A stretch of 64,000 bases of DNA from Bacteroidota bacterium (GTDB lineage: Bacteria; Bacteroidota; Bacteroidia; Sphingobacteriales; Sphingobacteriaceae): contig JAZJYI010000008.1 of NCBI GenBank assembly GCA_040390445.1, positions 551,994 to 615,993 on the forward strand. Reading direction: 5' to 3'. Numbering within the stretch: the first letter of the stretch is position 1; every line of letters starts with the position of its first letter. The notes under the pieces were generated by a model. It saw nothing but the letters and a program-made list of their open reading frames with translations. It searched no databases and had not been told where the DNA came from. A program made the position numbers and the translations under genes. Positions 5,250-21,948 of the stretch are shown here, piece by piece.

Positions 5250-6539
5250 TTAAAATGCCCATCTTTTTACCTTATGACCATAGAACGCATAAAAAGTGAG
5301 GAAGAAATAGCAGGGCAATAAAACCCAATAGCCACTACGTAAACTATAGCTATCGGCCAGATGCCCATAAATTAAAGGCATAACAGCATTGCCACTAAGC
5401 CCCATAATTAATAGCGATGCGCCTAATTTTAAATGCTTGCCCAACCCGTCAAGCGCCAGCGGCCATATGCCTGCCCATATCATAGAATTGGCAAAGCCCA
5501 AAAGCACCATAAACCATATGGATATATCAGTACGGTGGCCCAAAAATGTAACCTGACCTTTACTATATATCACCAGTAATGAAAACGTTATACCCAGTAA
5601 TGTACACACCCTTAGCGCATTTTTTTGAGATATACCCCATGGGATTAAAGAAATGCCCAGCAAATACCCGCAGATGGTAGCAAAAAGGGTGTATGAGGGG
5701 AATACTTTTGCTTCGGTAATTGGTATGCCCATCCCCTGTGCATAGGGGATGATGGTATCTATAACAATTACCTGCGAACCCACGTGGAAAAATATTGCCA
5801 TCGCCCCCAGTATTAAATGAGGAAAACGGAAAATGCTTGTCTTTGTAGTCTCCAGATTACTGGCCTTATCTACCAGATGCTGGTCCACTTCGGGCAGGGG
5901 TGAAAACCTTATTAATATGCCCAGCAAAGTAAGTATGCAACCCACAACAGCATAGGGGGCGATAACCCGTTTTATTAATGCATCTAATACCAGGTTACGT
6001 TGGGTGATATCCATTAAATGGACATCTTTAAAAAGTTGGTTATCAGTTGGTTTTATGATGATGGCTGCAAGCAATAAGGGTGCGATAATGCCTGCGGTTT
6101 TGTTGCAGATACCCATTATACTGATGCGTTGTGCGGCTCTTTCTTTTGCGCCAAGTATGGTAACATAAGGGTTGGCGGCTGTTTGCAGTATAGCCAAACC
6201 TATTCCGATAATAAACAGACCTGTTAGAAATAGGGGGTACGACCGTACCATAGCTGCCGGAATAAAAATGAAAGCGCCAAATGCCATTATAAAAAAACCT
6301 GTCATCATTCCTTTTTTGAATCCTGTTTTTTGCAGCAGGAAGGATGCAGGAACAGAGATAACCAGGTATGAAATGTAAAAAGCAAAAGCTACCAGGTACG
6401 ATTGAAAGTTGGTTAACTGGCACGCTACCTTAAAATAGGGTATAAGTACGGCATTTATCCAGGTGGCAAAACCAAATACGAAAAACACAACGCAAATAAT
6501 AAGCAAAGAGATAACATTTCGCTTGTTTTCCTGGCTCAT
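5250..6539 (-). CDS. MFS sugar transporter, FucP/GluP family; probable GlcNAc permease
   Basis: About 12 hydrophobic segments with LQTAANPY and QRISIMG motifs. Start placed at MSQENKR (6539) because the longer ORF start overlaps the predicted operator. Confidence 0.85.
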   Translation of the reverse strand: MSQENKRNVISLLIICVVFFVFGFATWINAVLIPYFKVACQLTNFQSYLVAFAFYISYLVISVPASFLLQKTGFKKGMMTGFFIMAFGAFIFIPAAMVRSYPLFLTGLFIIGIGLAILQTAANPYVTILGAKERAAQRISIMGICNKTAGIIAPLLLAAIIIKPTDNQLFKDVHLMDITQRNLVLDALIKRVIAPYAVVGCILTLLGILIRFSPLPEVDQHLVDKASNLETTKTSIFRFPHLILGAMAIFFHVGSQVIVIDTIIPYAQGMGIPITEAKVFPSYTLFATICGYLLGISLIPWGISQKNALRVCTLLGITFSLLVIYSKGQVTFLGHRTDISIWFMVLLGFANSMIWAGIWPLALDGLGKHLKLGASLLIMGLSGNAVMPLIYGHLADSYSLRSGYWVLLPCYFFLTFYAFYGHKVKRWAF

Positions 6540-10170: not shown

Positions 10171-10213
10171 GATATATACATATATTTGCAGTGTAGTAAT
10201 CGTTCTTTAAGTA

Positions 10214-10325
10214 CTTATCCAGAAAGACAGAGGGAAAGGCCCGATGACGTCTTAGCAACCTGTACCGGTTTTATAAACTTGTAAAAGGTGCTAATTCCTG
10301 CTCCGCTAAACGGAGAGAGATAAGA
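10214..10325 (+). ncRNA. SAM-I (S-box) riboswitch
   Basis: P1 CTTATC/GATAAG, P2 AAGAC/GTCTT with GAGGG..CCCGATGA, J2/3 AGCAACC, GGTGCTAATTCC and P4 CTCCG-ctaaa-CGGAG. It lies downstream of a TAnnTTTG promoter. Confidence 0.9.
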
Positions 10326-10424
10326 TGACCATAGAAATTCAAATATTCCACCTACCTGATTTCTTCGCGCTTCTGAATCTGATAAGTATTTACAGGCAAT
10401 TTGTAAATAATTAAAAGTACCAAC

Positions 10425-11561
10425 ATGAGCATTTATCTGGACAACGCTGCAACAACACAATTAGACAGGGAAGTATTTGATGCAATGACCCCATATTTAT
10501 TACAGAATTTTGGCAACCCGTCATCACATCATGTACATGGCAGGGTGGTGAAAAATGCTATTGAAAAAGCAAGGGAAACCATAGCCGGCCTGTTGAACGC
10601 ATCACCCGATGAAATTGTATTTACCAGCGGTGGCACTGAGGCCGATAATACAGCCATCCTGTCGAGCGTTCGTTCACATCAAATAAAACATGTTATTACC
10701 ACACCGTTTGAGCACCACGCTGTTTTACACACTCTTGAGGTTTTAAGAAATAACGACGAAATAAAACTAAGCTTTATTAATACCGATAGTAGGGGTAACT
10801 TGGATATAAATCACCTGGATGCCCTGTTGAAAAATAACGAACGCTCGCTGGTATCGGTAATGCATGCCAATAATGAAATTGGTAACCTTAACAATATTGA
10901 ACTGATTGGCGAGGTCTGTAAAAGCAGGGGCGCACTTTTTCACTCAGACACCGTACAGACCATGGGCCATTACCGGCACGATATGTCAAAACTAAAAACA
11001 CATTTTATAGCCGCATCGGCACATAAATTTCATGGGCCAAAAGGGGTGGGGTTTATATACTGCCGCAATGGTGTACAGCTATCACAATTATTGCACGGCG
11101 GTTCGCAGGAACGTAAACAAAGGGCAGGTACTGAAAATATCCATGGCATTATTGGCCTGGCAAAAGCTTTAGAGATAGCCTACCGCGATATTGACGGGCA
11201 CCAGGCATACATACAAAAATTAAAAAACAGGATGATTGCTAAATTGCAGGAACAAATAGGCGATGTACAGTTTAACGGTAACTCGGCCATTGCCGATAAA
11301 AGCCTGTATACTGTACTAAGTGCAAGCCTGCCGGTTAATCATGCGTCCGGAGATTTGCTTACCTATCTCGATCAGAATGATATTTCGGTATCGGGTGGCA
11401 GCGCATGTTCAACAGGCTCGGCATCACATGTATTACAGGCTATCGGTGCTGATACATTTAGAAATACGATCAGATTCTCGTTCAGTAAATTCAATACTGC
11501 CGAAGAAATTGATTATACCGTAGAAAAGCTATCAGCCTTATACAAGGCTATAGCAGCATAA
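10425..11561 (+). CDS. iscS: Cysteine desulfurase, IscS/NifS-like PLP enzyme
   Basis: Motifs IYLDNAATT, FGNPSS, FTSGGTEADN, SAHKFHGPKG and the catalytic SGGSACS. No isc or suf scaffold genes are adjacent, so the symbol denotes the family only. Confidence 0.85.
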   Translation: MSIYLDNAATTQLDREVFDAMTPYLLQNFGNPSSHHVHGRVVKNAIEKARETIAGLLNASPDEIVFTSGGTEADNTAILSSVRSHQIKHVITTPFEHHAVLHTLEVLRNNDEIKLSFINTDSRGNLDINHLDALLKNNERSLVSVMHANNEIGNLNNIELIGEVCKSRGALFHSDTVQTMGHYRHDMSKLKTHFIAASAHKFHGPKGVGFIYCRNGVQLSQLLHGGSQERKQRAGTENIHGIIGLAKALEIAYRDIDGHQAYIQKLKNRMIAKLQEQIGDVQFNGNSAIADKSLYTVLSASLPVNHASGDLLTYLDQNDISVSGGSACSTGSASHVLQAIGADTFRNTIRFSFSKFNTAEEIDYTVEKLSALYKAIAA

Positions 11562-11570
11562 TATTAAAAT

Positions 11571-12017
11571 ATGAGAAAATTTATAATAAGTGCGGGCATT
11601 ATATTATCGGGTTTTTACGCTAACGCGCAAATCCTTACCCCGGTTAAGTGGGCCTACGCAAGTAAACGGCTCAATAAAAATGAGGCTGTTATTTTGGTAA
11701 AAGCAACTATTGAAAAAGGCTGGCACATTTATTCGCAAAATGTAGCCGATGGCGGGCCGGTTAAAACGGCTTTGGTTTTTACCAAATCTGACGAGTATAA
11801 TTTGGTTAACAAGCCTACTGAACCTCAACCGTTAAAAAAATATGAAAAGGCTTTTGATATGGATGTAACCTACTTTGAAAATACGGTTGTGTTTCAGCAA
11901 AAAGTAAAGCTTGTAAAAGATCAGCCGATTATTAACGGAACCGTATCATACATGGCTTGTAGCAACAAAGAGTGCCTGCCGCCAGAGGATGTTACTTTTA
12001 GCGTAAGCGTAAAATAG
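11571..12017 (+). CDS. Stand-alone DsbD N-terminal (alpha) domain protein, exported
   Basis: Signal peptide (ANA-Q), GWHIYS and C-terminal YMACSNKECLPP. Confidence 0.8.
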   Translation: MRKFIISAGIILSGFYANAQILTPVKWAYASKRLNKNEAVILVKATIEKGWHIYSQNVADGGPVKTALVFTKSDEYNLVNKPTEPQPLKKYEKAFDMDVTYFENTVVFQQKVKLVKDQPIINGTVSYMACSNKECLPPEDVTFSVSVK

Positions 12018-12433: not shown

Positions 12434-12500
12434 TAGTTTGCTTTATTGATATTTATTGTTACCTTTACTGCATCTAATTAACCCCACCATTAATTAGTTG

Positions 12501-12610
12501 ATTTATTAAGAAAAAGGGAGAGGAAGCCTCGATGATCTTTTAGCAACTTTTCAGATATCTGGAATAAGTGCTCTACTTTATCTGATGGAATAATCCAACG
12601 GATAATAAAT
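12501..12610 (+). ncRNA. Divergent SAM-I-like riboswitch
   Basis: The elements occur in the same order as in 10214-10325: TTATT-AAGA, P2 AAAAG/CTTTT with GAGG-aag-CCTC-GATGA, AGCAAC, P3 TTCAGA/TCTGGA, GTGCT, P4 TGGA/TCCA, GATAA. Confidence 0.6.
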
Positions 12611-12622
12611 TAACTAAGTGTT

Positions 12623-12700
12623 ATGAAAAATTTGAAGTATCCAAAAGTAAACAAACAAACAACCGCTACTCCACCGCGATGTTGTTGTATGTGCATGTAG
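12623..12700 (+). CDS. Candidate sulfur-sensing leader peptide, 25 aa (MKNLKYPKVNKQTTATPPRCCCMCM)
   Basis: The last six codons are TGT TGT TGT ATG TGC ATG, then TAG. It starts 12 nt after the SAM-I-like RNA and ends 160 nt before the first operon gene. Confidence 0.65.
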   Translation: MKNLKYPKVNKQTTATPPRCCCMCM

Positions 12701-12860: not shown

Positions 12861-14177
12861 ATGAACTTCAAAAATTATCTATCAAAAGCAAAATACCTTA
12901 CACTGGGTGTTTTATTAAGTGGTGCAGCGGTAGCGGGGGATAAAGTGCCGGCAGCAAAATTTATTAAAGAGGGCGTATGGCGTGGCGTATTTACGGTGAG
13001 CGAATCGCAGGTGCCGTTTAACTTCGAGCTGAAAGGGAAAGACCCGCAGCATGCCATATTTACATTGATAAACGGAACCCGCCGTGATAACTTTCATGTT
13101 GAGCGCCGCGGTAATGATTCAGTATACATTAAAATGAATACCTACGATGCCGCATTGGTCGCTAAAATAAACGATGATAATACCATTAGCGGTGAATACC
13201 GCAGTCTGGTACCCGGTTTTAGGGGGAATGCCCTGCCATTTACGGCCGAATATGGTAAAAATTATCGCTTTGTAGAGCCAGGTAAAGACGTAGCCCCGGC
13301 TGCCGACTTATCCGGTAAATGGGAAATCAAAACCTATAGTAAAGAAGCCGTCCCTGCATCTATCGCCATATTAAAACAAAAAGGAAATAAGCTAACAGGC
13401 GTGGTGATGACTGTTGTTGGCGACACCCGCGAACTGGAAGGCACTGTACAAGGCGACGAATTTGCGCTGAGTGGTTTTACCGGCCCAAGTCCGTTTATTA
13501 TAAAAGGTAAAATAAATGCTGATGGCACTATTAGCGGCGAAGAAGGTTTCGGCATCTACAAAAACCTGAAGTTTGATGCCACTAAGAACGCAGCTGTTGA
13601 GTTGCCCGATCCATATAAACTAACCTTCCTAAAAGAGGGCTACAAAAAACTTGATTTTTCTTTCCCTGGCATTGACGGCAAACAGGTATCGTTAAGCGAC
13701 GAAAAATACAAAGGCAAGGTTGTTATTATTGAGATAATTGGTACATGGTGCCCAAATTGCACCGATCAAACCGTATTCCTGTCGCCATGGTTTAATAAAA
13801 ACCGCCAGCGTGGGGTAGAAGCCATAGCTATTGGTTTTGAGCAAAAAGACAGCCTGGAGTACGCCAAATACACATTAGGAAAGCTGAAAGAAAAATATAA
13901 CATTAACTATGATATTGCCTTTGGCGGCCTGGCCGATAAAAAGCTGGTATCGCAAAAGCTGCCCGCGCTAAATAAGTTTATCGCTTTCCCAACTACTATT
14001 ATTATTGATAGAAAAGGCGATGTGCGAGAGATTTACACCGGCTATACAGGTACCGTAACCGGCAAATATCACGAGGATTACGAAAAGAAATTCAACAAAG
14101 TATTGGACGAGTTGATTGCCGAGCCAGCACCAGAAACGGCACAGGTTGTTGATAAAAACGCGAGTCAGGGTAAATAA
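12861..14177 (+). CDS. TlpA-family thioredoxin-like disulfide reductase with a large N-terminal beta domain (copy 1)
   Basis: Sec signal; C-terminal redoxin domain with GTWCPNC and FPTTIIIDRKG. Confidence 0.88.
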   Translation: MNFKNYLSKAKYLTLGVLLSGAAVAGDKVPAAKFIKEGVWRGVFTVSESQVPFNFELKGKDPQHAIFTLINGTRRDNFHVERRGNDSVYIKMNTYDAALVAKINDDNTISGEYRSLVPGFRGNALPFTAEYGKNYRFVEPGKDVAPAADLSGKWEIKTYSKEAVPASIAILKQKGNKLTGVVMTVVGDTRELEGTVQGDEFALSGFTGPSPFIIKGKINADGTISGEEGFGIYKNLKFDATKNAAVELPDPYKLTFLKEGYKKLDFSFPGIDGKQVSLSDEKYKGKVVIIEIIGTWCPNCTDQTVFLSPWFNKNRQRGVEAIAIGFEQKDSLEYAKYTLGKLKEKYNINYDIAFGGLADKKLVSQKLPALNKFIAFPTTIIIDRKGDVREIYTGYTGTVTGKYHEDYEKKFNKVLDELIAEPAPETAQVVDKNASQGK

Positions 14178-14199
14178 ACTTTAAACCGAACATAAACAT

Positions 14200-15504
14200 A
14201 TGAAAACTAACAATTTAAAAGGGCTTTTAATAGGCTTGTTATTTAGCGGTGCCGCTTTCGCAGGCGACAAAGAACCGGTAAAATTTATTAAAGAAGGCGT
14301 TTGGCGCGGTGTATTCCGTGTAAGCGAATCACAGGTGCCGTTCAACTTTGAATTTAAAGGCAAGGATGCAGAGCATGCGGTGTTTACGCTGCTAAATGGC
14401 ACCCGCCGGGATAATTTCCATGTACAAAAAATAGGTAAAGATTCGGTGTTCATTAAAATGAATACCTACGATGCAGCCCTTGTTGCCAAAATTGAAGAGG
14501 ATGGCACGCTAAGCGGCGAGTACCGCAGCCTGGTACCGGGTTTTAGAGGCAACTCGTTGCCTTTTACTGCCGAGTATGGCAAAAACTACCGCTTTGTTGA
14601 ACCGGGCAAGGATGTTGCCCCGGCAGCAAACCTAACCGGTAAGTGGGAGTTGAAGGTTTACTCGAAAGAGCAGGTGCCAAACAAAATTGCTGTTCTTAAA
14701 CAAAACGGCAATAAGCTAACCGGTGTAATTATGCAGGTAACCGGCGACAGCCGCGAATTGGAAGGTACAGTACAGGGCGATCAGTTCGAACTATCCGGTT
14801 TCACTGGCCCAAGCCCAAAGATTTATCATGGTAAAATAAATGCAGATGGCACCCTGAGTGGCGAAATTGGCTCCGGTATTTACGATAATACCAAGTTTGA
14901 CGCTGTAAAAGATGAAAAAGCCGAACTGCCTGATCCATATAAGCTAACTTTTTTAAAAGAAGGCTATAAGAAACTGGATTTCACTTTCCCTGACCTGAAC
15001 GGCAAAGCGGTATCATTAAGCGATGATAAATATAAAGGCAAAGTGGTTATTGTAGAGATTATAGGTACCTGGTGCCCTAACTGTACTGATCAAACCGTGT
15101 TTTTGTCGCCATGGTTCAACAAAAACCACCAGCGTGGGGTAGAAGCCATTGCTCTTGGTTTTGAGCAAAAGGATAGCCTTAAATACGCTCAATATACCTT
15201 AGGTAAGTTGCGCGATAAATATGATGTGAAATACGACATCCTTTTTGGCGGCCTGGCCGATAAAAAATTGGTATCGCAAAAACTGCCTGCGCTTAATAAG
15301 TTCGTGGCATTCCCAACTACGATCATCATCGATAGGAAAGGCGAAGTACGCGAGATCTATACCGGCTACACCGGCACGGTAACCGGTAAATATTACAAGG
15401 ATTACGAAAAGAAATTTAATGCCCTGCTTGATAAACTATTGGCAGAAGATGCGCCAACAACCGCCGCCGTAAGCACAGACGATAACGCATCAAAAGGAAG
15501 ATAA
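14200..15504 (+). CDS. TlpA-family thioredoxin-like disulfide reductase (copy 2, tandem paralogue)
   Basis: Colinear with the previous gene and highly similar along its whole length, with the same WCPNC motif. Confidence 0.88.
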   Translation: MKTNNLKGLLIGLLFSGAAFAGDKEPVKFIKEGVWRGVFRVSESQVPFNFEFKGKDAEHAVFTLLNGTRRDNFHVQKIGKDSVFIKMNTYDAALVAKIEEDGTLSGEYRSLVPGFRGNSLPFTAEYGKNYRFVEPGKDVAPAANLTGKWELKVYSKEQVPNKIAVLKQNGNKLTGVIMQVTGDSRELEGTVQGDQFELSGFTGPSPKIYHGKINADGTLSGEIGSGIYDNTKFDAVKDEKAELPDPYKLTFLKEGYKKLDFTFPDLNGKAVSLSDDKYKGKVVIVEIIGTWCPNCTDQTVFLSPWFNKNHQRGVEAIALGFEQKDSLKYAQYTLGKLRDKYDVKYDILFGGLADKKLVSQKLPALNKFVAFPTTIIIDRKGEVREIYTGYTGTVTGKYYKDYEKKFNALLDKLLAEDAPTTAAVSTDDNASKGR

Positions 15505-15534
15505 AAGATTAACCGGACTATATAATTAACTATT

Positions 15535-15564
15535 AACCTGGTGCAGATTTGCCTGCGCCGGGTT
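15535..15564 (+). other. Intercistronic hairpin
   Basis: AACCTGGTGCAG pairs with CTGCGCCGGGTT using G-U pairs; the U-tract is weak. Confidence 0.45.
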
Positions 15565-15594
15565 TAAACAACAAAACTAAGCACAAGAACGATC

Positions 15595-16251
15595 ATGAAA
15601 TTAACAATTGGCCTATCGGTAATAACCATAGCATCTATTGCAGCATTAACTGGCATAGCTCCAAACAAAACAAACCATGTAAAACCCACGGCAATTGCAG
15701 TAAATCCTATCAGGTTTGCAAAACCGGTTGTTTTTAAAGTAGATAACCAAACCAGCAAACTTACCTGGCTGGCTAAAAAAGCCACCGGCGAACACTCTGG
15801 CACCGTAGAAGTAAGCGATGGTAGCTTTACCCTTGATAATAACACACTAAAAGCAGGTAGCTTTGATATTGATACCCGTAGTATTACAGACACGGATATT
15901 ACCGACGAAGGTGCAAACGGTAAACTGGTTACTCACCTAAAAAGCGACGACTTTTTCAGTGTAGAAAAGCACCCTAAAGCAAACTTTGTGCTTACATCTG
16001 CCACAAAAGCAGCGGGTAATATTTATAATGTTAAAGGTAACCTAACCATAAAAGGCATCACTAACGAGGTAACTTTTCCGGCTACGGTTGCGGTAAACGG
16101 TAAAAAGCTAACTGCCAACGCTAAGATCACCATAGATCGTACCAAGTACGATATCAAATTCCGGTCTAAAAACTTCTTTGAGAATTTGGGCGACAAAGTG
16201 ATCTATGACGATTTTGATATTAATGTGGCGCTTGTAGCCAACGCCCAATAA
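15595..16251 (+). CDS. YceI family exported lipophile-binding protein
   Basis: Signal peptide; motifs LTWLAKKATGEHSG, LVTHLKSDDFFSVEKHP, GNLTIKGIT and IDRTKYDI. Confidence 0.9.
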   Translation: MKLTIGLSVITIASIAALTGIAPNKTNHVKPTAIAVNPIRFAKPVVFKVDNQTSKLTWLAKKATGEHSGTVEVSDGSFTLDNNTLKAGSFDIDTRSITDTDITDEGANGKLVTHLKSDDFFSVEKHPKANFVLTSATKAAGNIYNVKGNLTIKGITNEVTFPATVAVNGKKLTANAKITIDRTKYDIKFRSKNFFENLGDKVIYDDFDINVALVANAQ

Positions 16252-16283
16252 ATAAAGAAACTACATTGATTAGGTTGGAAGAT

Positions 16284-16316
16284 AAAGATCCCTGCTTTGA
16301 GCGGGCAGGGACTTTA
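16284..16316 (+). terminator. Intercistronic hairpin or weak intrinsic terminator
   Basis: TCCCTGC-tttgagcgg-GCAGGGA followed by CTTTATT. Confidence 0.5.
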
Positions 16317-16366
16317 TTGACTAATAAACTCGTAAATAATATACCATAACAGCTGAGCAAATAACC

Positions 16367-17332
16367 ATGAAAAAGAAGAATATCACCTTAACTATAATAA
16401 GTGTTACGCTTTTATTCATTACCACGGTAAGCTTCATGTCGGGGCCCGATGAAGTGCAAACCAGGGAAGAGCTTGGCCGTAAACTATTTTTTGATAACAT
16501 CCTTTCAAAAGACAATACTATTAATTGCTCATCGTGCCATAACCCCGAGTTTGCATTTGCCGATACCTCTGTATTTAGTAAAGGTATTGGTGGTAAGCTA
16601 ACTGCACGTAATTCGCCGGGGCTTACAAATTTATCGGGCCGTACCCACTTTTTTTGGGATGGCCGCGCAGCCTCGTTAGAAGAACAGGCCCTCGGGCCAA
16701 TTACATCGCCCGATGAGATGGGTTTACCCATTGAAGAGGCTATTGAACGACTTAACAAAAACGAATTTTATGCAAACGCTTTTCAAAAAATATTTAAAGC
16801 AGCGCCGAATAAAGATAATTTGTTGAAAGCACTTGCTGCTTTTGAACGGACGCTGGAAACAAGCAACAGCCCTTATGACCGCTATATAAATGGTGATGAT
16901 AATGCATTATCAGCCGCTGCGGTACGTGGCCGCAATATATTTATAGGCAAGGGTAACTGTAACAACTGCCACTCTGGCGAAGATTTTACCGCAGACCGCT
17001 TTAAAAGCATTGGCTTATATAATGGCAAAGACCTGAACGATGCCGGCAGGTTCAAAATAACAAAAGACAGCACCGTACTGGGCGAATTTAAAATACCAGG
17101 TTTGCGTAATGTAGCCGTAACAGCGCCATACATGCACAACGGTAAGTTTAAAACTCTGCGCAACGTGGTGGAGTATTACAACAATCCATCAGCTTTGGTA
17201 AGTGACGGTATAAACCGCGACCTGTCTTTAGATAAACCATTGAACCTTTCATCGCAGGATATAGATGACGTAGTTGAATTCCTGAAAGCCTTAACTGATG
17301 ACAGGTTCGCCAAAAATATAAGCAGAAACTGA
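16367..17332 (+). CDS. Di-heme cytochrome c peroxidase superfamily protein, MauG/MbnH-like
   Basis: Two CxxCH motifs (CSSCH, CNNCH), FFWDGRAASLEEQA and FKIPGLRNVAVTAPYMHNG; signal peptide. Confidence 0.88.
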   Translation: MKKKNITLTIISVTLLFITTVSFMSGPDEVQTREELGRKLFFDNILSKDNTINCSSCHNPEFAFADTSVFSKGIGGKLTARNSPGLTNLSGRTHFFWDGRAASLEEQALGPITSPDEMGLPIEEAIERLNKNEFYANAFQKIFKAAPNKDNLLKALAAFERTLETSNSPYDRYINGDDNALSAAAVRGRNIFIGKGNCNNCHSGEDFTADRFKSIGLYNGKDLNDAGRFKITKDSTVLGEFKIPGLRNVAVTAPYMHNGKFKTLRNVVEYYNNPSALVSDGINRDLSLDKPLNLSSQDIDDVVEFLKALTDDRFAKNISRN

Positions 17333-17430
17333 TACCATAAACTAATCTGAACACTTAAAAGCAAAATGTAATGCGGGCCAAACGGCCTGTACGAAATGCC
17401 CTTTTGCCTAAATTTTAACACAATAAAACA

Positions 17431-20202
17431 ATGAAAAGAGCTATACTTTATATATTATTCTTAAGCCTTATTTATGGGCAAAATACACTGGCGCAGGAGG
17501 CGAGACGGGTAACCGGCGTAGTTACGTCGGCCGATGATGGCCAGCCCTTACCTGGTGTATCTGTACAGGTAAAAGGTACTAATGAGGGTACTGTCACTAA
17601 ACTTGATGGTACGTTTGAACTAAATATAACTACCGGTAAATACCTTATTTTTTCTTTTGTAGGGTACGAAACACAAGAGATTTATATTGATGGTATCCGC
17701 AGGTTTAACGTGGCGCTAAAGCCAAAAGGCAATCAATTGGGCGATGTGCAAATCATCGGTTCACGTAACGCAAACCGTACCAAGCTTAACTCGGCCAACC
17801 CGGTTGATATTATTGATATTAAGGCGCTACAGGAGAGCAGCCCGCAGGTAAGCGTTACTCAACTGCTGCAATACGTATCACCGTCATTCCACTCATCCGT
17901 ATCTGGTGGTGGTGATGCGGCATCGGCAACCTCAACAGCGCAATTGCGTGGGTTGGGAGTAGATCAATTACTGGTTCTGATAAACGGTAAACGCCGCCAT
18001 AAAAGCTCTAACATCAGTTGGGGTGGTTTGGGTAATGGTGCTACCGGTTATGATCTAAACTCTATCCCAACCGGTTCTATAGACCGCATTGAGATACTAC
18101 GCGATGGTGCGGCCGCTCAATATGGTTCTGATGCTATTGCAGGGGTAATTAATATTGTATTGAAGAAATCTACCGATCAGTTAACGCTTAATTCTACTGC
18201 CAGTAGCCGCCGCCGGGGGGATGGCATTACTACGCGTACCAGTAGCAATTACGGCGTTAAACTCGGTGACAAAGGTGGTTTTTTAAACTTGACCGGCGAA
18301 TTTGCTACCCAGGCGGTATCCTTGCCGGTAGGTAGGGATGATGCAGGTTTGTATATAGGCCCTGCATATGGCGGGGGCGCTAACACCCGCGGTTTCGATC
18401 AGATCTATACCAAAGAAATAGATGATGCCATCATCAAATCAAGAGGGATAGACAGGCATTACTTTGACCAGCGCGGCAGCACCAATAAAGCTATTGACGC
18501 ATTGCTGTTCTTTAATGCGGCGGTACCTTTACAAAAAGACGTTGAACTATATAGTTTTGGTGGTATAAGCCAGCGCAATTCACAATTTACGGCCGTTTAC
18601 CGTTTACCAGGCTGGACAGAGCGTAACAATACATTTGTTTATCCTGATGGCTTTTTACCGGCCATGGATAACATCATTTCTGATAAATCATTAGCGGTAG
18701 GCGTAAAAGCCAAAGTACACGGTTGGAATGTAGATATATCAAACGTGTACGGTAATAATAGCTTTGGTAACAATATCTCTAACTCGCTTAATGCAAGCTA
18801 CGGCTTACGTTCGCCGCGTAAATTTGACGCGGGGAGTTATAGCGCCAGCCAGAATACCGGTAGTTTAGATTTTAGCCGCTACTTTGATAAGGTACTGAAA
18901 GGGGTGAACATTGCCTTTGGCGGCCAGTATCGTGTTGAAACTTACCGTATCAATGCAGGCGATGAGGCGTCTTATTCTAAAGCCGACCTGAGGCAGATAT
19001 ACGGTGTGGATACGACATCAGGCGGTATACCTTACACAACATCGTTAGGGCAAACGCCGCTAAACGGTTTATCGCCAGGCTCACAGATCCACGCGGGTTT
19101 CAGGCCAAGTAACGAGGTGAACGTAAACCGCTCCATCTCTGCAGGCTACGCCGATGTGGAAGTGAACGCAACCAACGCCTGGTTGGTATCTGGCGCTTTG
19201 CGAGTTGAGAACTACTCAGATTTTGGGAGCGTATTTACTTACAAAGCCGCAACCCGTTATAAATTTGCCGATTTCTTAAGCGTTCGTGGTTCCATTAACA
19301 CCGGCTTCCGCGCACCCGATCTGGCACAGTTCTATTATACCGAAACATCAACAACGTTCCAGAATGGAGTAGCTATTGATCAGGTTACGGCTAACAACGT
19401 TAATCCGGCTACCAAAGCCTTAGGTATACCGAGCTTAACGCCTGAGCGGTCTAAAGGCTATACCGCTGGTATCACCTCATCGCCCATACCAAATTTTGAG
19501 TTTACGATTGATGCTTATAAAATTGATATCCGCGACAGGGTAGGTAACACGGGCCGTTTTTCGGCTACAGACACCAACCTACCTGCAGATGTAAGGGCAT
19601 TATTTGTGGCAACGGGTACGGTACAGGCTAAGTTCTTCTACAATTCCTTTAGTACCAGTACCAGAGGGGTGGAGCTTACAGGTAGTTATAAATATACTTT
19701 CGAGAATGGCGCTAAAGCAACTTTCCTGGTAGGGGCCAATTTCCTGGAAACTAAATTGACTAAAGTGAACACCCCACCAGGACTGGAAGCGTACCGCTAC
19801 ATTATATTTGATGAGTCGGAGAAGGCTCGTGTAACTAACAACATACCGTCTAAAAAGATCACCTTACAAGGTACTTATGGAATAGACAGGTTCAACTTCC
19901 TGCTGCGTACGGTTTACTTTGGCTCGGTAGTTTCAGTTACCCAATTAAACGCCAATTTTCCTAAGCCCGATTATTACTACCAAACGTTCAGTCCGGTTTG
20001 GATAACCGATTTATCTGTAGGGTATGCGGTATCTAAAAACTTATCGGCTACGATAGGTGCCAACAACCTGTTCAATATACTGGGCGATTATACTATCCCT
20101 GCACCGGGTAGTAACATTACCCGCATCCCTGGCCCGGGCTCTTCACAGGCAGGGACCAATACAGGTATACAGCCATTTGTAAGATTATCGGCTAAATTTT
20201 AA
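17431..20202 (+). CDS. TonB-dependent receptor with an N-terminal carboxypeptidase-regulatory-like domain (not SusC type)
   Basis: Plug motifs LVLINGKRRH and RIEILRDGAAAQYGSDAIAGVINIVLK; C-terminal Phe; no SusD downstream. Confidence 0.92.
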   Translation: MKRAILYILFLSLIYGQNTLAQEARRVTGVVTSADDGQPLPGVSVQVKGTNEGTVTKLDGTFELNITTGKYLIFSFVGYETQEIYIDGIRRFNVALKPKGNQLGDVQIIGSRNANRTKLNSANPVDIIDIKALQESSPQVSVTQLLQYVSPSFHSSVSGGGDAASATSTAQLRGLGVDQLLVLINGKRRHKSSNISWGGLGNGATGYDLNSIPTGSIDRIEILRDGAAAQYGSDAIAGVINIVLKKSTDQLTLNSTASSRRRGDGITTRTSSNYGVKLGDKGGFLNLTGEFATQAVSLPVGRDDAGLYIGPAYGGGANTRGFDQIYTKEIDDAIIKSRGIDRHYFDQRGSTNKAIDALLFFNAAVPLQKDVELYSFGGISQRNSQFTAVYRLPGWTERNNTFVYPDGFLPAMDNIISDKSLAVGVKAKVHGWNVDISNVYGNNSFGNNISNSLNASYGLRSPRKFDAGSYSASQNTGSLDFSRYFDKVLKGVNIAFGGQYRVETYRINAGDEASYSKADLRQIYGVDTTSGGIPYTTSLGQTPLNGLSPGSQIHAGFRPSNEVNVNRSISAGYADVEVNATNAWLVSGALRVENYSDFGSVFTYKAATRYKFADFLSVRGSINTGFRAPDLAQFYYTETSTTFQNGVAIDQVTANNVNPATKALGIPSLTPERSKGYTAGITSSPIPNFEFTIDAYKIDIRDRVGNTGRFSATDTNLPADVRALFVATGTVQAKFFYNSFSTSTRGVELTGSYKYTFENGAKATFLVGANFLETKLTKVNTPPGLEAYRYIIFDESEKARVTNNIPSKKITLQGTYGIDRFNFLLRTVYFGSVVSVTQLNANFPKPDYYYQTFSPVWITDLSVGYAVSKNLSATIGANNLFNILGDYTIPAPGSNITRIPGPGSSQAGTNTGIQPFVRLSAKF

Positions 20203-20224
20203 ATCATATCAATAAACAGAACTC

Positions 20225-21139
20225 ATGAAAATAATGGAATATATTTTAAAAAGAATAAAAAATCCAGAAAGGCTGCGAGGGCTTCAACCTGTCTATGCGT
20301 TAAGTATGCTTATAATATTACTATCAGCATCCTGCAAAAAAACCAATTACCTGGATACTGATAATTCGCAAAGGCCGCCATTAAGCGCCAGGGTGAAATT
20401 GGTGAACGCCTTAAGCATAACCGCGCCAATAAACTTCCTGGATTTTACCAGGCAGGTTAACACCAGCCTGGTAGTTCATAATGCATCTACAGGTTACCTG
20501 GATACACAATTTGGCAAGGTACAATACAACACCACCGAGGGTAGCAATACCAGTTACAAGTCATCATACGTGTTTGGCGGGAGTGCCATTTTTCAGCAGG
20601 AGACGGATAAAGCATCTTTTTCGGGCCCTAATGGCCCCATAGCCGATTTTTATCATACACTATTTGCGGTAGCCAAACGTAAGCCCAGCAAATTAAACCC
20701 CGGTAACCGCGACAGCCTGGTATTGGTTTATGATGATCTGGATGCCCCGGCAGCAGGCAAAACCAAAGTAAGGTTTGCTAACTTCTCGCCCGATGCACCA
20801 AATGTAAGTTTTGCTGCGGCAGGCGGCACCGCCATATTTACCAACGTAGGCTACGGTAGTTTTGGCGATCAAACCGTACTTACTTATGACGCTACAGGTA
20901 AAGGCCCTGCCACCATACCGGGACTAAACTGGAAAACCCTGGGGCCATTTAAAGAGATAGCACCCACGGCAGTAGTAAACTTTGAGATAAGGAATGCCAC
21001 CACCAATGCTGTGATCCCGGTAACCGGAACAGGGTTAACAGGGGTAACATTTGAGGCCGGGAAAATATATACCGTGTTTATAAACGGAACGGTAACAGGT
21101 GGAACTTTAAGCGCGACGATAATTACCCATACTAAGTAA
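20225..21139 (+). CDS. DUF4397-like surface lipoprotein
   Basis: Lipobox LSASC followed by KK; two repeats of the type RVKLVNA and KVRFANFSPDAP; C-terminal GKIYTVFING. Confidence 0.75.
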   Translation: MKIMEYILKRIKNPERLRGLQPVYALSMLIILLSASCKKTNYLDTDNSQRPPLSARVKLVNALSITAPINFLDFTRQVNTSLVVHNASTGYLDTQFGKVQYNTTEGSNTSYKSSYVFGGSAIFQQETDKASFSGPNGPIADFYHTLFAVAKRKPSKLNPGNRDSLVLVYDDLDAPAAGKTKVRFANFSPDAPNVSFAAAGGTAIFTNVGYGSFGDQTVLTYDATGKGPATIPGLNWKTLGPFKEIAPTAVVNFEIRNATTNAVIPVTGTGLTGVTFEAGKIYTVFINGTVTGGTLSATIITHTK

Positions 21140-21175
21140 CAGCACATACAATAAGTGATTTAATATTTGTGCTTT

Positions 21176-21211
21176 AAAGGCAGCGCGGCTTTATACCCGC
21201 CTGCCCTTTTT
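21176..21211 (+). terminator. Intrinsic terminator-like hairpin before sod
   Basis: AAAGGCAGCGCGG pairs imperfectly with CCGCCTGCCCTTT and is followed by a T run. Confidence 0.55.
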
Positions 21212-21237
21212 AACGTTTAATTATAAAAACAATAGCC

Positions 21238-21948
21238 ATGAAAGATAACAGTAGAAGACAATTCATCAAAAATACCCTTGCAGCTACCGCAGCCGTAACC
21301 GTGGGCACATCTTTAATAGATAGTTCAACCGCGTTTGCAGGTGTAGAAGCATTTAAGTTTACACAGGTGCCGCTGCCATTTAAATACGCCGACCTGGAGC
21401 CGAATATTGATGCATTAACTAATGAAATACATTATACAAAGCACCACACCGCATATATTAAAAATGTGAATGATGCCATTGTTGCCGAAAAGATACCCTA
21501 CACCAGCGAAAAGCAATTTTTTGACAATGCCTCAAAACTATCGGCCAAGGCCCGAAACAACGCAGGCGGCGCCTGGAACCATAACTTTTTTTGGGAAAGT
21601 TTGCGCGCACCAGGTGGGGCAGGGCCTCAGGGTAAATTGTTGGATGCTATCAACGGCTCCTTTGGTTCACTTGATAAACTAAAAGAACAATTTAACGATG
21701 CCGCTACAAAACGTTTTGGATCTGGCTGGGCATGGCTGGTTGTTGATGGCGGGAAATTAAAGATTGGGTCAACAGCTAACCAGGATAATCCATTATTTGA
21801 TAATGCCGAACTAAAAGGAACGCCTTTATTGGGCCTGGATGTTTGGGAACATGCCTACTATTTAAAGTACCAGAATCGCCGCCCCGAGTATATTGCTAAT
21901 TTTTGGAATGTAGTTAACTGGGATAAAGTAGCATCGCGATTGAGTTAG
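21238..21948 (+). CDS. sodA: Tat-exported Fe/Mn superoxide dismutase with Mn-type residues
   Basis: Twin-arginine signal SRRQFIK; metal ligands in HYTKHH, NHNFFW and DVWEHAYY. GG in NNAGG and NQD are typical of Mn-type enzymes. Confidence 0.9.
   Translation: MKDNSRRQFIKNTLAATAAVTVGTSLIDSSTAFAGVEAFKFTQVPLPFKYADLEPNIDALTNEIHYTKHHTAYIKNVNDAIVAEKIPYTSEKQFFDNASKLSAKARNNAGGAWNHNFFWESLRAPGGAGPQGKLLDAINGSFGSLDKLKEQFNDAATKRFGSGWAWLVVDGGKLKIGSTANQDNPLFDNAELKGTPLLGLDVWEHAYYLKYQNRRPEYIANFWNVVNWDKVASRLS

What the first reader, a model, noticed from the sequence alone, without database searches (positions are those of the whole stretch)
16367..17332. Di-heme enzyme looks MauG/MbnH-type (Tyr ligand) but has no recognisable substrate partner
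Seen: after TAPYMHNG the sequence runs KFKTLRNVVEYYN. From memory of MauG (TGPYMHNGVFTDLRTAILFYN), the second Tyr aligns with the axial Tyr of heme 2; classical bacterial cytochrome c peroxidases have Met there. Known: MauG and MbnH use this arrangement to oxidise Trp residues in a partner protein (methylamine dehydrogenase, MbnP). No methylamine dehydrogenase, no MbnP-like WxW protein and no methanethiol oxidase is in the window. Inference: a new substrate, either a neighbouring protein or a sulfur compound.
Basis: partly seen in the sequence, partly recalled or inferred. Interest (0 to 1): 0.65.

Follow-up and report, generated by a model that had tools for sequence, protein, structure and literature searches.

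The report
Tyrosine-type di-haem peroxidase, sulfur-starvation operon
This gene encodes an exported two-haem, peroxide-using enzyme of the MauG type (tyrosine where ordinary peroxidases have methionine) that has none of the known partner proteins and instead sits in a conserved, riboswitch-controlled gene cluster that soil Bacteroidota probably switch on when sulfur is scarce.

Summary
ORF 16367-17332 (+) is a 321-aa CCP_MauG protein. Tyr271 aligns with the haem ligand Tyr294 of MauG and with Met275 of Pseudomonas CCP. The distal His of activatable CCPs is Ile. The peroxide-site residues, the inter-haem Trp and the Ca2+ ligands are conserved.

It is neither MauG nor MbnH. It scores below both curated cut-offs, and the 99.99%-complete genome holds no MADH, MbnP or methanethiol oxidase. 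A Tyr at this column is not rare: 26 of 28 paralogues in the family sample have it, and the closest relatives (50-56% identity) are stand-alone genes.

The context is the informative part:
- The gene lies in a conserved string: long TlpA (x2), YceI, this gene, TonB receptor, DUF4397, plus or minus SOD.
- A SAM-I riboswitch heads the string here and in four other species.
- The cluster's proteins are Met/Cys-poor. This enzyme keeps only two core Met, against about seven in stand-alone relatives.

Most likely it consumes periplasmic H2O2 during thiol/disulfide-based sulfur scavenging (about 45%). Rival: an H2O2-driven oxidant of an unknown substrate or partner protein (about 30%).

Other first-stage notes on this same window had already flagged the riboswitches and the sulfur-poor composition; I checked both independently.

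The parts
16367..17332 (+). Di-haem CCP_MauG-family enzyme, 321 aa, with an N-terminal signal-like hydrophobic segment; the only PF03150 gene in the genome.
16526..16540 (+). CSSCH, the haem-1 (peroxide-binding haem) attachment motif; His58 corresponds to MauG His35.
16586..16588 (+). Ile74, at the column of the distal His71 of P. aeruginosa CCP. There is no sixth ligand here, which implies a five-coordinate peroxide haem.
   Evidence: alignment; Val or Ile in 65 of 80 homologues.
16655..16657 (+). Trp97, the inter-haem Trp (MauG Trp93, Pa CCP Trp94) and the only Trp in the protein.
16685..16717 (+). Gln107...Pro111...Glu117, the distal peroxide pocket (MauG Gln103, Pro107, Glu113).
16958..16972 (+). 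CNNCH, the haem-2 attachment motif; His202 corresponds to MauG His205. Gly196 sits at the column of MauG Trp199.
17177..17179 (+). Tyr271, at the column of the MauG Tyr294 ligand and of the Pa CCP Met275 ligand.
12500..12611 (+). SAM-I riboswitch aptamer heading the co-directional gene string.
   Evidence: Rfam RF00162, 52.4 bits against a gathering score of 44.4; the same placement is seen in L002, L003, L006 and L008.
12861..14177 (+). Long TlpA-type thiol-disulfide oxidoreductase 1 (WCPNC) with a conserved ~250-aa N-terminal double beta-barrel-like region.
14200..15504 (+). Long TlpA-type oxidoreductase 2, a paralogue 79% identical to the first.
15595..16251 (+). YceI-like periplasmic protein with no Met or Cys after the initiator.
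16289..16311 (+). GC-rich 9-bp hairpin with a weak T tail between yceI and the di-haem gene. It could be a partial terminator or a processing site.
17431..20202 (+). TonB-dependent receptor, 923 aa, with 1 Met and 0 Cys after the initiator.
20225..21139 (+). DUF4397 lipoprotein; the model shows a tandem Ig-like beta-sandwich and does not resemble MbnP.
21238..21948 (+). Tat-signal Fe/Mn superoxide dismutase with no Met or Cys after the initiator.
10212..12017 (+). Upstream unit: a SAM-I riboswitch (10212-10326), a class-V aminotransferase/cysteine desulfurase-like gene (10425-11561) and a stand-alone exported DsbD-alpha domain (11571-12017).
   Evidence: In Cytophagales the DsbD-alpha gene lies directly upstream of the di-haem gene.

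Best explanation
The gene encodes a periplasmic di-haem c-type enzyme of the MauG type. One haem is five-coordinate and binds H2O2; it is His58-ligated, has no distal His, and keeps the Gln107/Pro111/Glu117 pocket. The second haem is ligated by His202 and Tyr271. Trp97 and a Ca2+ site (Asn82, Thr252, Pro254) link the two. The protein belongs to its own Bacteroidota-centred clade and is neither MauG nor MbnH.

In this genome and in about a dozen soil Bacteroidota it is one gene of a conserved envelope cluster: one or two long TlpA-type thiol-disulfide reductases, YceI, this enzyme, a TonB-dependent receptor and a DUF4397 lipoprotein, with or without DsbD-alpha and a Tat-exported SOD. Here the cluster follows a SAM-I riboswitch and is built from Met/Cys-poor proteins, so it is probably expressed when methionine or sulfur is scarce.

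Most likely mechanism (inferred, not shown): H2O2 oxidises the di-ferric enzyme to a two-equivalent oxidised state, bis-Fe(IV) as in MauG, MbnH and BthA. That state is reduced back by periplasmic reductants. The enzyme would thus remove H2O2 made by the co-encoded SOD and by autoxidation of thiols released when the TlpA proteins reduce imported disulfide-type sulfur compounds. The long TlpA and DsbD-alpha proteins, its most persistent gene neighbours, are the best candidates for electron donors.
For: Enzyme type:
- Pfam and NCBIfam hits.
- Residue-by-residue alignments with Pa CCP, Ne CCP, MbnH and MauG.
- Conservation of every catalytic column.
- The literature defines MauG-type enzymes by His-Tyr ligation of the second haem (PMC11892367; PMC6405878).

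Own clade:
- The tree shows a starred 26-row clade, with the operon-linked subclade supported 100/98 and the canonical Met-type clade separate.

Cluster conservation:
- tblastn of neighbours in the fetched loci and gene order.
- Reverse look-up from three TlpA-long proteins gives the same string in Chitinophaga nivalis, Pedobacter cryoconitis and Mucilaginibacter mallensis.
- TonB receptor, TlpA-long and di-haem gene are also adjacent in a Brevundimonas MAG.

Sulfur control:
- A SAM-I riboswitch above the gathering score here and in L002 (tandem), L003, L006 and L008, and heading the receptor arm in L009.
- Operon proteins fall between the 0th and 5th percentile of Met+Cys content among 3819 genome ORFs.
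- The di-haem core holds 2 Met here and a mean of 3.6 in operon-linked orthologues, against 7.1 in stand-alone relatives and 8.6 in family paralogues.

Antioxidant reading:
- A SOD lies in the same string.
- A 1-Cys peroxiredoxin sits behind another SAM riboswitch in this genome.
- Sulfur starvation is known to co-induce antioxidant enzymes (LsfA, Ohr, SodB) in P. aeruginosa (PMC12581299).
- A periplasmic cysteine/cystine link to H2O2 is known in E. coli (PMC4383340; title and abstract start only).
- Stand-alone relatives lack any partner.
- MauG's Trp199 relay and its insertions are missing.
- BthA keeps H2O2 reduction with an external donor.
Against: - Characterised His-Tyr enzymes are described as poor dye-linked peroxidases that use H2O2 as an oxidant (PMC11892367).
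- 12 of 20 same-genus genomes sampled have no PF03150 gene at all, so the enzyme is not needed for general peroxide defence.
- The SOD is present in only part of the clusters (3 of the 11 loci, plus L114).
- No riboswitch was detected ahead of the TlpA/di-haem arm in L007, L009 or L013.
- A hairpin between yceI and this gene leaves co-transcription unproven.
- The electron donor, the imported substrate and bis-Fe(IV) formation are all inferred.
Confidence: 0.45

Rival explanations
1. It is an H2O2-driven oxidant with a dedicated substrate inside the operon's pathway. One version: it installs a protein-derived cofactor or other modification on a co-encoded protein. The best candidate is the very conserved N-terminal double-barrel region of TlpA-long, with invariant Trp40 and Trp154. 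The other version: it oxidises a small sulfur compound brought in by the TonB receptor, for example to break a C-S bond or to fix a thiol or sulfide as a mixed disulfide or persulfide on TlpA.
For: - The His-Tyr ligand set is that of all three characterised oxidant-type enzymes.
- Linkage to TlpA-long and a TonB receptor is tight and cross-phylum.
- The operon-linked enzymes form one monophyletic subclade.
- TlpA-long is unusually conserved (mean column identity 60% across three families), with invariant Trp and many invariant Arg, Asp and Glu in the N-region.
- From my own knowledge: MauG works beside a thioredoxin-like MauD, and methanethiol oxidase clusters pair a MauG-like gene with Sco1.
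- MbnPH pairs often neighbour a TonB transporter (PMC3621798).
- The SOD could supply the H2O2.
Against: - No known substrate family is present.
- DUF4397 has no invariant Trp and does not resemble MbnP.
- The enzyme has a single Trp and lacks MauG Trp199.
- Close relatives are stand-alone genes.
- Oxidising scavenged sulfur runs against assimilation, which needs reduced sulfur.
Confidence: 0.3
2. It is an ordinary housekeeping cytochrome c peroxidase that takes electrons from a respiratory c-type cytochrome. On this reading its position in the cluster has no functional meaning.
For: - All public annotations call it cytochrome c peroxidase.
- The best PDB sequence hits over residues 28-274 are canonical CCPs (E 1e-43).
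- All peroxide-site residues are kept.
- It is the sole family member in the genome.
Against: - The Met ligand and the distal His that define canonical enzymes are both replaced.
- It lies outside the canonical clade.
- The gene order is conserved across three families and in a reverse look-up.
- Met depletion is specific to the operon-linked orthologues.
- Distribution is patchy: only 2 of 151 family genomes sampled hold an orthologue of at least 60% identity.
Confidence: 0.12
3. It is a di-haem electron carrier that does not use H2O2 in vivo. For example, it could pass electrons from the TlpA/DsbD-alpha thiols, or from an imported reduced sulfur species, to the respiratory chain.
For: - It lies next to DsbD-alpha and TlpA.
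- From my own knowledge: di-haem c-type proteins act in sulfur oxidation (TsdA, SoxAX).
Against: - The complete peroxide-activating pocket (Gln, Pro, Glu) and the open distal site are invariant, which would not be needed in a pure carrier.
- There is no similarity to TsdA or SoxA beyond the CXXCH motif.
Confidence: 0.05

Closest known systems
MauG of Paracoccus denitrificans (PDB 3L4M; TIGR03791)
   Same: It has two c-haems. These MauG residues all have identical counterparts here: His35, Asn66, Trp93, Gln103, Pro107, Glu113, His205, Thr275, Pro277 and Tyr294. They match His58, Asn82, Trp97, Gln107, Pro111, Glu117, His202, Thr252, Pro254 and Tyr271. In the tree MauG is the nearest characterised neighbour, with weak support on a long branch.
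   Different: - Identity is only 31%.
- The TIGR03791 score is 211 bits against a cut-off of 444.
- MauG Trp199 is Gly196 here, and several MauG insertions are missing.
- There is no mau cluster and no MADH light chain in the genome.
- The gene is under a SAM riboswitch rather than methylamine control.
MbnH of Methylosinus trichosporium OB3b (PDB 6E1C; TIGR04039)
   Same: It is the best full-length MauG-type hit in the PDB (E 1e-36) and the best NCBIfam model (226 bits). The Tyr column is shared. Like many mbnPH pairs, the gene lies next to a TonB-dependent transporter (PMC3621798).
   Different: - It scores below the curated cut-off (363 bits).
- There is no MbnP (TIGR04052) in the genome.
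- The lipoprotein next to the receptor is DUF4397, with no invariant Trp and no MbnP-like fold.
- The context points to sulfur, not copper.
BthA of Burkholderia thailandensis (PDB 6NX0)
   Same: It is a His-Tyr di-haem enzyme with no known substrate. It lies outside any mau or mbn cluster and keeps a conserved gene neighbour of unclear role.
   Different: BthA has 477 aa, lacks the inter-haem Trp and the Ca2+ site, and has a C-terminal disulfide. The window protein keeps the Trp and the Ca2+ ligands and has no Cys outside the haem motifs.
Canonical bacterial cytochrome c peroxidases (P. aeruginosa 1EB7, N. europaea 1IQC)
   Same: These are the highest-scoring PDB sequences over the first ~270 residues (E 1e-43 and 6e-43). 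They share the size (~320 aa), the peroxide pocket, the inter-haem Trp and the Ca2+ site.
   Different: - The Met275 ligand is Tyr271 here, and the distal His71 is Ile74.
- The C-terminal 50 residues align only with MbnH and MauG.
- The canonical enzymes form a separate, fully supported clade.
Antioxidant branch of bacterial sulfur-starvation responses (LsfA, Ohr, SodB of P. aeruginosa)
   Same: Peroxide- and superoxide-removing enzymes are switched on together with sulfur-scavenging transporters (PMC12581299). This genome also places a 1-Cys peroxiredoxin behind a SAM riboswitch.
   Different: Those are cytoplasmic thiol peroxidases under protein regulators. Here the candidate is a periplasmic haem enzyme under a riboswitch, physically linked to a receptor and to thiol-disulfide reductases.

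Membership tests
CCP_MauG superfamily (Pfam PF03150) | Profile score above the curated cut-off | tested here: met
   190.8 bits against 25.6.
CCP_MauG superfamily (Pfam PF03150) | Two CXXCH haem-c attachment motifs | tested here: met
   CSSCH at residues 54-58 and CNNCH at 198-202; invariant in homologues.
MauG-type (His-Tyr) di-haem enzymes | Tyr at the axial-ligand column of the second haem | tested here: met
   Tyr271 aligns with MauG Tyr294 and the MbnH Tyr, and with Pa CCP Met275. Actual coordination of the iron cannot be tested with these tools.
MauG-type (His-Tyr) di-haem enzymes | Peroxide haem without a distal protein ligand (five-coordinate as isolated) | tested here: met
   The column of Pa CCP His71 is Ile74 here, and Val or Ile in 65 of 80 homologues. 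This is inferred from sequence only.
MauG-type (His-Tyr) di-haem enzymes | Forms a bis-Fe(IV) state with H2O2 | not testable with these tools
   Needs near-infrared, Moessbauer or EPR spectroscopy on purified protein.
MauG proper (TIGR03791) | Equivalog model score above the cut-off | tested here: not met
   211.1 bits against 443.85.
MauG proper (TIGR03791) | Encoded with methylamine dehydrogenase (mau cluster) | tested here: not met
   No PF02975 hit in the genome (the control search also rang nowhere, so this negative is weak). No mau genes among the neighbours.
MauG proper (TIGR03791) | Surface Trp199 hole-hopping relay to the substrate protein | tested here: not met
   Gly196 sits at that column, and the protein has a single Trp.
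MbnH (TIGR04039) | Model score above the cut-off | tested here: not met
   225.8 bits against 362.85.
MbnH (TIGR04039) | Paired with an MbnP (TIGR04052) gene | tested here: not met
   No TIGR04052 match in the genome, none among the neighbours, and the DUF4397 model has no MbnP hit.
Canonical bacterial cytochrome c peroxidase | His-Met ligation of the electron-transfer haem | tested here: not met
   The Met275 column holds Tyr. The PYMHNG Met256 is also present in MauG, where it is not the ligand.
Canonical bacterial cytochrome c peroxidase | Peroxide pocket Gln/Glu, inter-haem Trp and Ca2+ ligands | tested here: met
   Gln107, Glu117, Trp97, Asn82, Thr252 and Pro254 are conserved.
BthA class | Ser in place of the inter-haem Trp, no Ca2+ site, C-terminal disulfide | tested here: not met
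   The Trp and the Ca2+ ligands are present, and there is no Cys outside the haem motifs (BthA features).

The most novel reading that the evidence does not exclude
The enzyme uses H2O2, perhaps supplied by the co-encoded periplasmic SOD, to carry out bis-Fe(IV) chemistry that is part of sulfur acquisition itself. It could create a protein-derived cofactor on the conserved double-barrel region of the long TlpA partner. Or it could oxidatively process or capture a sulfur compound delivered by the TonB receptor. Either case would be the first link between MauG-type chemistry and sulfur scavenging, and a fourth substrate class for this enzyme type.
Probability: 0.25. Interest if true: 0.8.

Novelty: new variant of a known kind. 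Interest (0 to 1): 0.5.

Why it matters
Only three His-Tyr di-haem enzymes have been studied (MauG, MbnH, BthA), and only two of them have a known substrate. This clade is small (about 320 aa), has a single Trp, and keeps the Ca2+ site and the inter-haem Trp. That makes it a minimal model for asking whether Tyr ligation alone commits the fold to bis-Fe(IV) oxidant chemistry, or whether such enzymes can be true peroxidases fed by low-potential donors such as thiol-disulfide proteins.

Its fixed place in a riboswitch-led, sulfur-poor cluster gives a concrete physiological handle: growth on defined sulfur sources, and induction by methionine limitation. BthA lacks such a handle. I found no paper in the searched library that links a bacterial cytochrome c peroxidase family member to a SAM riboswitch.

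The survey also shows that 'Tyr instead of Met' is the majority state among these genes in Sphingobacteriaceae, all of which are annotated as plain cytochrome c peroxidase. That is a useful caution for annotation.

Tried and rejected
- DUF4397 as a hidden MbnP: no NCBIfam hit, no PDB sequence hit even at E=1, and no invariant Trp. The AF2 model (pLDDT 69.5) matches the tandem Ig-like ectodomains of PepT1/2 and AlgF-C, not MbnP. Rejected.
- Known partners elsewhere in the genome (MbnP, SBP56/methanethiol oxidase, MADH light chain): none found.
- Substrate clue from the TonB receptor: PDB hits cover only the plug and N-terminal domain (PirA, FepA, CirA, SusC, BtuB) and are uninformative.
- Fold of the TlpA-long N-region: the model is good (pLDDT 80), but Foldseek hits are dominated by the thioredoxin domain. 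Only the 2 x 8-strand layout can be stated.
- SAM riboswitch next to the stand-alone homologues: none in 68 loci by nhmmer. None upstream of the TlpA/di-haem arm in L013, L009 or L007, even at E<=1.
- A Bacteroidetes-type promoter (TAnnTTTG) directly upstream of the gene: none in the 115-bp spacer. The simple sigma-70 scan was at background level.
- Literature on SAM riboswitch plus TonB receptor or thioredoxin in Bacteroidetes, and on YceI plus cytochrome c peroxidase: nothing relevant.
- The idea that Tyr-for-Met is itself a sulfur-sparing substitution: rejected, because the whole 26-row clade, including stand-alone genes without a riboswitch, has Tyr.
- I spent both structure predictions on the neighbours, so no model of the di-haem protein itself was made. 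Its residue assignments rest on sequence alignment to solved structures.
Full report
THE OBSERVATION

The ORF at 16367-17332 on the plus strand is open and encodes 321 residues. It has a hydrophobic N-terminal signal-like segment and two haem-c motifs, CSSCH (residues 54-58) and CNNCH (198-202), followed by TAPYMHNGKFKTLRNVVEYYN. Pfam assigns it to CCP_MauG with 190.8 bits against a cut-off of 25.6.

A phmmer search of PDB chains aligns the C-terminal part without gaps to MauG. Counting from the printed chain coordinate 257, the MauG residue opposite the second Tyr of EYYN is Tyr294, the known axial ligand of the six-coordinate haem. MbnH (6E1C) also has a Tyr in that column. In P. aeruginosa CCP (1EB7) the same column is Met275 of 'AIMGN'. 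That Met275 and Tyr294 are the haem ligands is established knowledge of those structures; the His-Met against His-Tyr distinction is stated in PMC11892367 and PMC6405878.

I also fetched the annotated mauG gene from P. denitrificans PD1222 plasmid 1 and aligned the whole protein, which gave the same column.

ANATOMY OF THE ENZYME

With the 20-residue signal peptide removed, the MauG alignment gives these pairs, MauG first and the window protein second:

- His35 = His58
- Asn66 = Asn82
- Trp93 = Trp97
- Gln103 = Gln107
- Pro107 = Pro111
- Glu113 = Glu117
- His205 = His202
- Thr275 = Thr252
- Pro277 = Pro254
- Tyr294 = Tyr271

The distal His71 of activatable CCPs is Ile74. All of these columns are invariant in 18 orthologues and nearly so in 80 homologues. 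In those 80, Tyr271 is Tyr in 79, Glu117 is kept in 80 and Gln107 in 78.

Two MauG features are missing:
- The surface relay Trp199 is Gly196.
- Several MauG insertions are absent.

The protein contains only one Trp, the inter-haem Trp97, and no Cys outside the haem motifs. On sequence grounds it is an intact H2O2-activating di-haem enzyme with a His/Tyr second haem. It lacks the Trp-based route that MauG uses to reach a partner protein.

WHAT IT IS NOT

- It scores below the curated cut-offs of both MbnH (TIGR04039: 226 against 363 bits) and MauG (TIGR03791: 211 against 444 bits).
- It is 31% identical to MauG.
- The genome is 99.99% complete and holds this one PF03150 gene. It has no MbnP, no SBP56/methanethiol oxidase and no MADH light chain. 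The last search has no positive control, so that negative is weak.
- In a maximum-likelihood tree of 68 family members the protein lies in a well-supported 26-row clade (98/97). MauG is a weakly supported, long-branched sister (84/87).
- The canonical Met-type enzymes (Pa, Ne and two Mucilaginibacter genes) form a separate clade supported 100/100.

HOW UNUSUAL THE TYR IS

It is not unusual in this lineage.

- Among the best PF03150 genes of 28 genomes of the family, 26 have Tyr in the aligned column and only two have Met.
- The closest relatives outside the operon-linked subclade are 50-56% identical and occur in Ferruginibacter, Saprospiraceae and Flavobacteriales. They keep every catalytic residue.
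- Those relatives sit beside unrelated housekeeping genes: a response regulator, RuvB, RecQ, thymidylate synthase and a CPBP protease.

'Tyr and no partner' is therefore a common condition and does not by itself indicate a new substrate.

THE CONTEXT

All genes from 12861 to 21948 run on the plus strand:

- two paralogous 434-438-aa TlpA/ResA-type oxidoreductases (WCPNC) with a ~250-aa N-terminal region that has no Pfam match
- YceI
- the di-haem gene
- a 923-aa TonB-dependent receptor
- a DUF4397 lipoprotein
- a Tat-signal Fe/Mn SOD

A SAM-I riboswitch scoring above the Rfam gathering score lies at 12500-12611. Another, at 10212-10326, heads a cysteine-desulfurase-like gene and a stand-alone DsbD-alpha domain.

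The string TlpA-long / YceI / di-haem / receptor / DUF4397 recurs in:
- Pedobacter, Mucilaginibacter, Siphonobacter and Chitinophaga
- Dyadobacter and a Cytophagales MAG, in rearranged form
- three further genomes reached from the TlpA side

In Cytophagales the DsbD-alpha gene sits directly upstream of the di-haem gene. A Brevundimonas MAG has receptor / TlpA-long (CPNS variant) / di-haem / PD40 protein / M28 peptidase. The Cytophagales MAG inserts two M19 dipeptidases.

The riboswitch heads the string in P. soli (in tandem), Mucilaginibacter FT3.2, Pedobacter AW31-3R and Siphonobacter. In Dyadobacter luteus it heads the YceI-receptor-DUF4397 arm. It was not found in L007 or L013, nor ahead of the Dyadobacter TlpA arm. 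It was not found near any stand-alone homologue.

SULFUR ECONOMY

I ranked Met+Cys content among 3819 long ORFs of the genome:

- YceI and SOD have no Met or Cys after the initiator.
- The receptor has one Met in 923 residues (0.4th percentile).
- The TlpA proteins lie near the 4th percentile.
- DUF4397 lies at the 5th percentile.

The di-haem protein keeps its four obligatory haem Cys. In its 284-residue core it has only two Met (118 and 256), both invariant. The operon-linked orthologues average 3.6 Met, the stand-alone relatives 7.1 and the other family paralogues 8.6.

The genome's other SAM riboswitches head four units:
- metH-metF
- metY-metX-hom
- a 1-Cys peroxiredoxin
- a TlpA-like gene with a sulfur-poor SusC/SusD pair

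The SAM regulon here therefore joins methionine synthesis, TonB-dependent uptake with periplasmic thiol-disulfide reductases, and antioxidant enzymes.

MECHANISM

Shown: the enzyme type, the cluster, the riboswitch and the sulfur-poor composition.

Inferred: expression under methionine or sulfur shortage, and the function.

I favour a peroxide-consuming role (about 45%). On this reading H2O2 converts the di-ferric enzyme to a two-equivalent oxidised state, which is reduced by periplasmic donors. This would protect thiols freed by TlpA-mediated reduction of imported disulfide-type sulfur compounds and remove the H2O2 that the SOD produces.

Support:
- the SOD and peroxiredoxin links
- the known co-induction of antioxidant enzymes with sulfur scavenging in P. 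aeruginosa (PMC12581299)
- the stand-alone relatives
- the missing Trp relay

The persistent adjacency to TlpA-long and DsbD-alpha makes these low-potential thiol proteins plausible donors. That would suit the low haem potentials reported for His-Tyr enzymes. There is no precedent for it, and it is a guess.

Against:
- His-Tyr enzymes studied so far are poor dye-linked peroxidases.
- Most congeners manage without any such gene: 12 of 20 have none.
- Only 2 of 151 family genomes sampled hold an orthologue of at least 60% identity.

The main rival (about 30%) is a dedicated H2O2-driven oxidation, either of TlpA-long or of the imported compound. TlpA-long's N-region models as two eight-stranded beta units, with invariant Trp40 and Trp154 and many invariant charged residues.

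A plain housekeeping cytochrome c peroxidase (about 12%) and a non-peroxide electron carrier (about 5%) fit the data poorly.

COMPARISON AND NOVELTY

It works like a MauG-type enzyme. It fails the membership tests for MauG, MbnH, BthA and the canonical peroxidases. It represents an uncharacterised clade, and its operon-linked subclade is new in regulation and partners. I rate it a new variant of a known kind, with interest 0.5.

- The Tyr itself is common and the function is unresolved.
- The sulfur link, the minimal single-Trp architecture and the conserved TlpA-long partnership give clear, cheap experiments.
- I found no paper in the searched library connecting this enzyme family with a SAM riboswitch.

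LIMITS

- I made no structure model of the di-haem protein itself.
- The tree root is arbitrary and MauG sits on a long branch.
- Riboswitch control of this particular gene assumes read-through of the hairpin at 16289-16311.
- Other first-stage notes on this window had already pointed to the riboswitches, the sulfur-poor composition and the Tat SOD. I verified these with my own calls.

Noticed in passing
G000 contig C1:533475-534384 (outside the window): A SAM-I riboswitch directly precedes a 211-aa 1-Cys peroxiredoxin (AhpC-TSA plus 1-cysPrx_C). It parallels the low-sulfate-induced LsfA of Pseudomonas, but here under riboswitch control.
   Followed up: partly
G000 contig C9:218386-212653, minus strand (outside the window): Another SAM-I riboswitch heads a TlpA-like thioredoxin plus a SusC/SusD pair that is also sulfur-poor (SusC has 3 Met and 0 Cys in 1067 aa). 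This is a second riboswitch-led 'receptor plus periplasmic thiol reductase' unit in the same genome.
   Followed up: partly
L002:5895-6142 (Pedobacter soli): Two SAM-I aptamers in tandem (5895-6000 and 6033-6142) precede the orthologous cluster.
   Followed up: no
L007:10985-12205 and 16907-18154 (Cytophagales MAG): Two exported M19 'membrane dipeptidase' genes are intercalated in the rearranged cluster, followed by a LigB-type dioxygenase. In mammals this dipeptidase family cleaves Cys-Gly and cystinyl-bis-glycine (my own knowledge), which hints at cysteinyl peptides as the scavenged substrate.
   Followed up: partly
L053:6205-13316 (Brevundimonas MAG): An alphaproteobacterial contig carries TonB receptor / TlpA-long / di-haem gene / PD40 beta-propeller / M28 aminopeptidase-PDZ. 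Its TlpA-long has CPNS instead of CPNC, a single-Cys variant.
   Followed up: partly
window 12861-13630 and 14200-14960 (N-terminal regions of the two TlpA-long proteins): This region has no Pfam family. The AF2 model shows two eight-stranded beta units, each opening with an invariant G-x-W. Many invariant Arg, Asp, Glu and Asn are present, but no invariant His, Cys or Met. The family is small (443 proteins in 5.8 billion) and very conserved.
   Followed up: partly
window 12623-12700: A 25-codon ORF ending in ...PPRCCCMCM lies 11 bases behind the second SAM aptamer. I did not test it further.
   Followed up: no
L082-L110 (Sphingobacteriaceae PF03150 paralogues): 26 of 28 di-haem 'cytochrome c peroxidase' genes sampled in the family have Tyr at the ligand column. 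They fall into several distinct subfamilies (FYNLGNP, MYNxGM, HYS types), and many of these also keep the distal His of activatable CCPs. None is characterised.
   Followed up: partly
Tree, operon-linked subclade (L002-L013): The branching does not follow taxonomy. Pedobacter soli groups with Mucilaginibacter, and Chitinophaga and Dyadobacter nest among Pedobacter. Only 2 of 151 family genomes carry an orthologue. Together these suggest horizontal spread of the cluster.
   Followed up: no
L003:15522-16877, L004:6187-7542, L009:6441-7793, L007:60-1325: A ~450-aa multi-pass membrane protein with no Pfam match recurs next to the cluster in four loci.
   Followed up: no
G000 contig C18:46239-47549 (outside the window): The riboswitch-led O-acetylhomoserine sulfhydrylase-like gene (436 aa) has only one Met and no Cys after the initiator. 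Sulfur economy therefore extends to the methionine pathway itself.
   Followed up: no
G148:C17:22060-22965 and G120:C31:33903-34838: The two next-best family matches to the di-haem protein (65% and 50% identity) are reported with one in-frame stop each (TAA, TGA). I did not check whether these are broken genes or match overhang.
   Followed up: no
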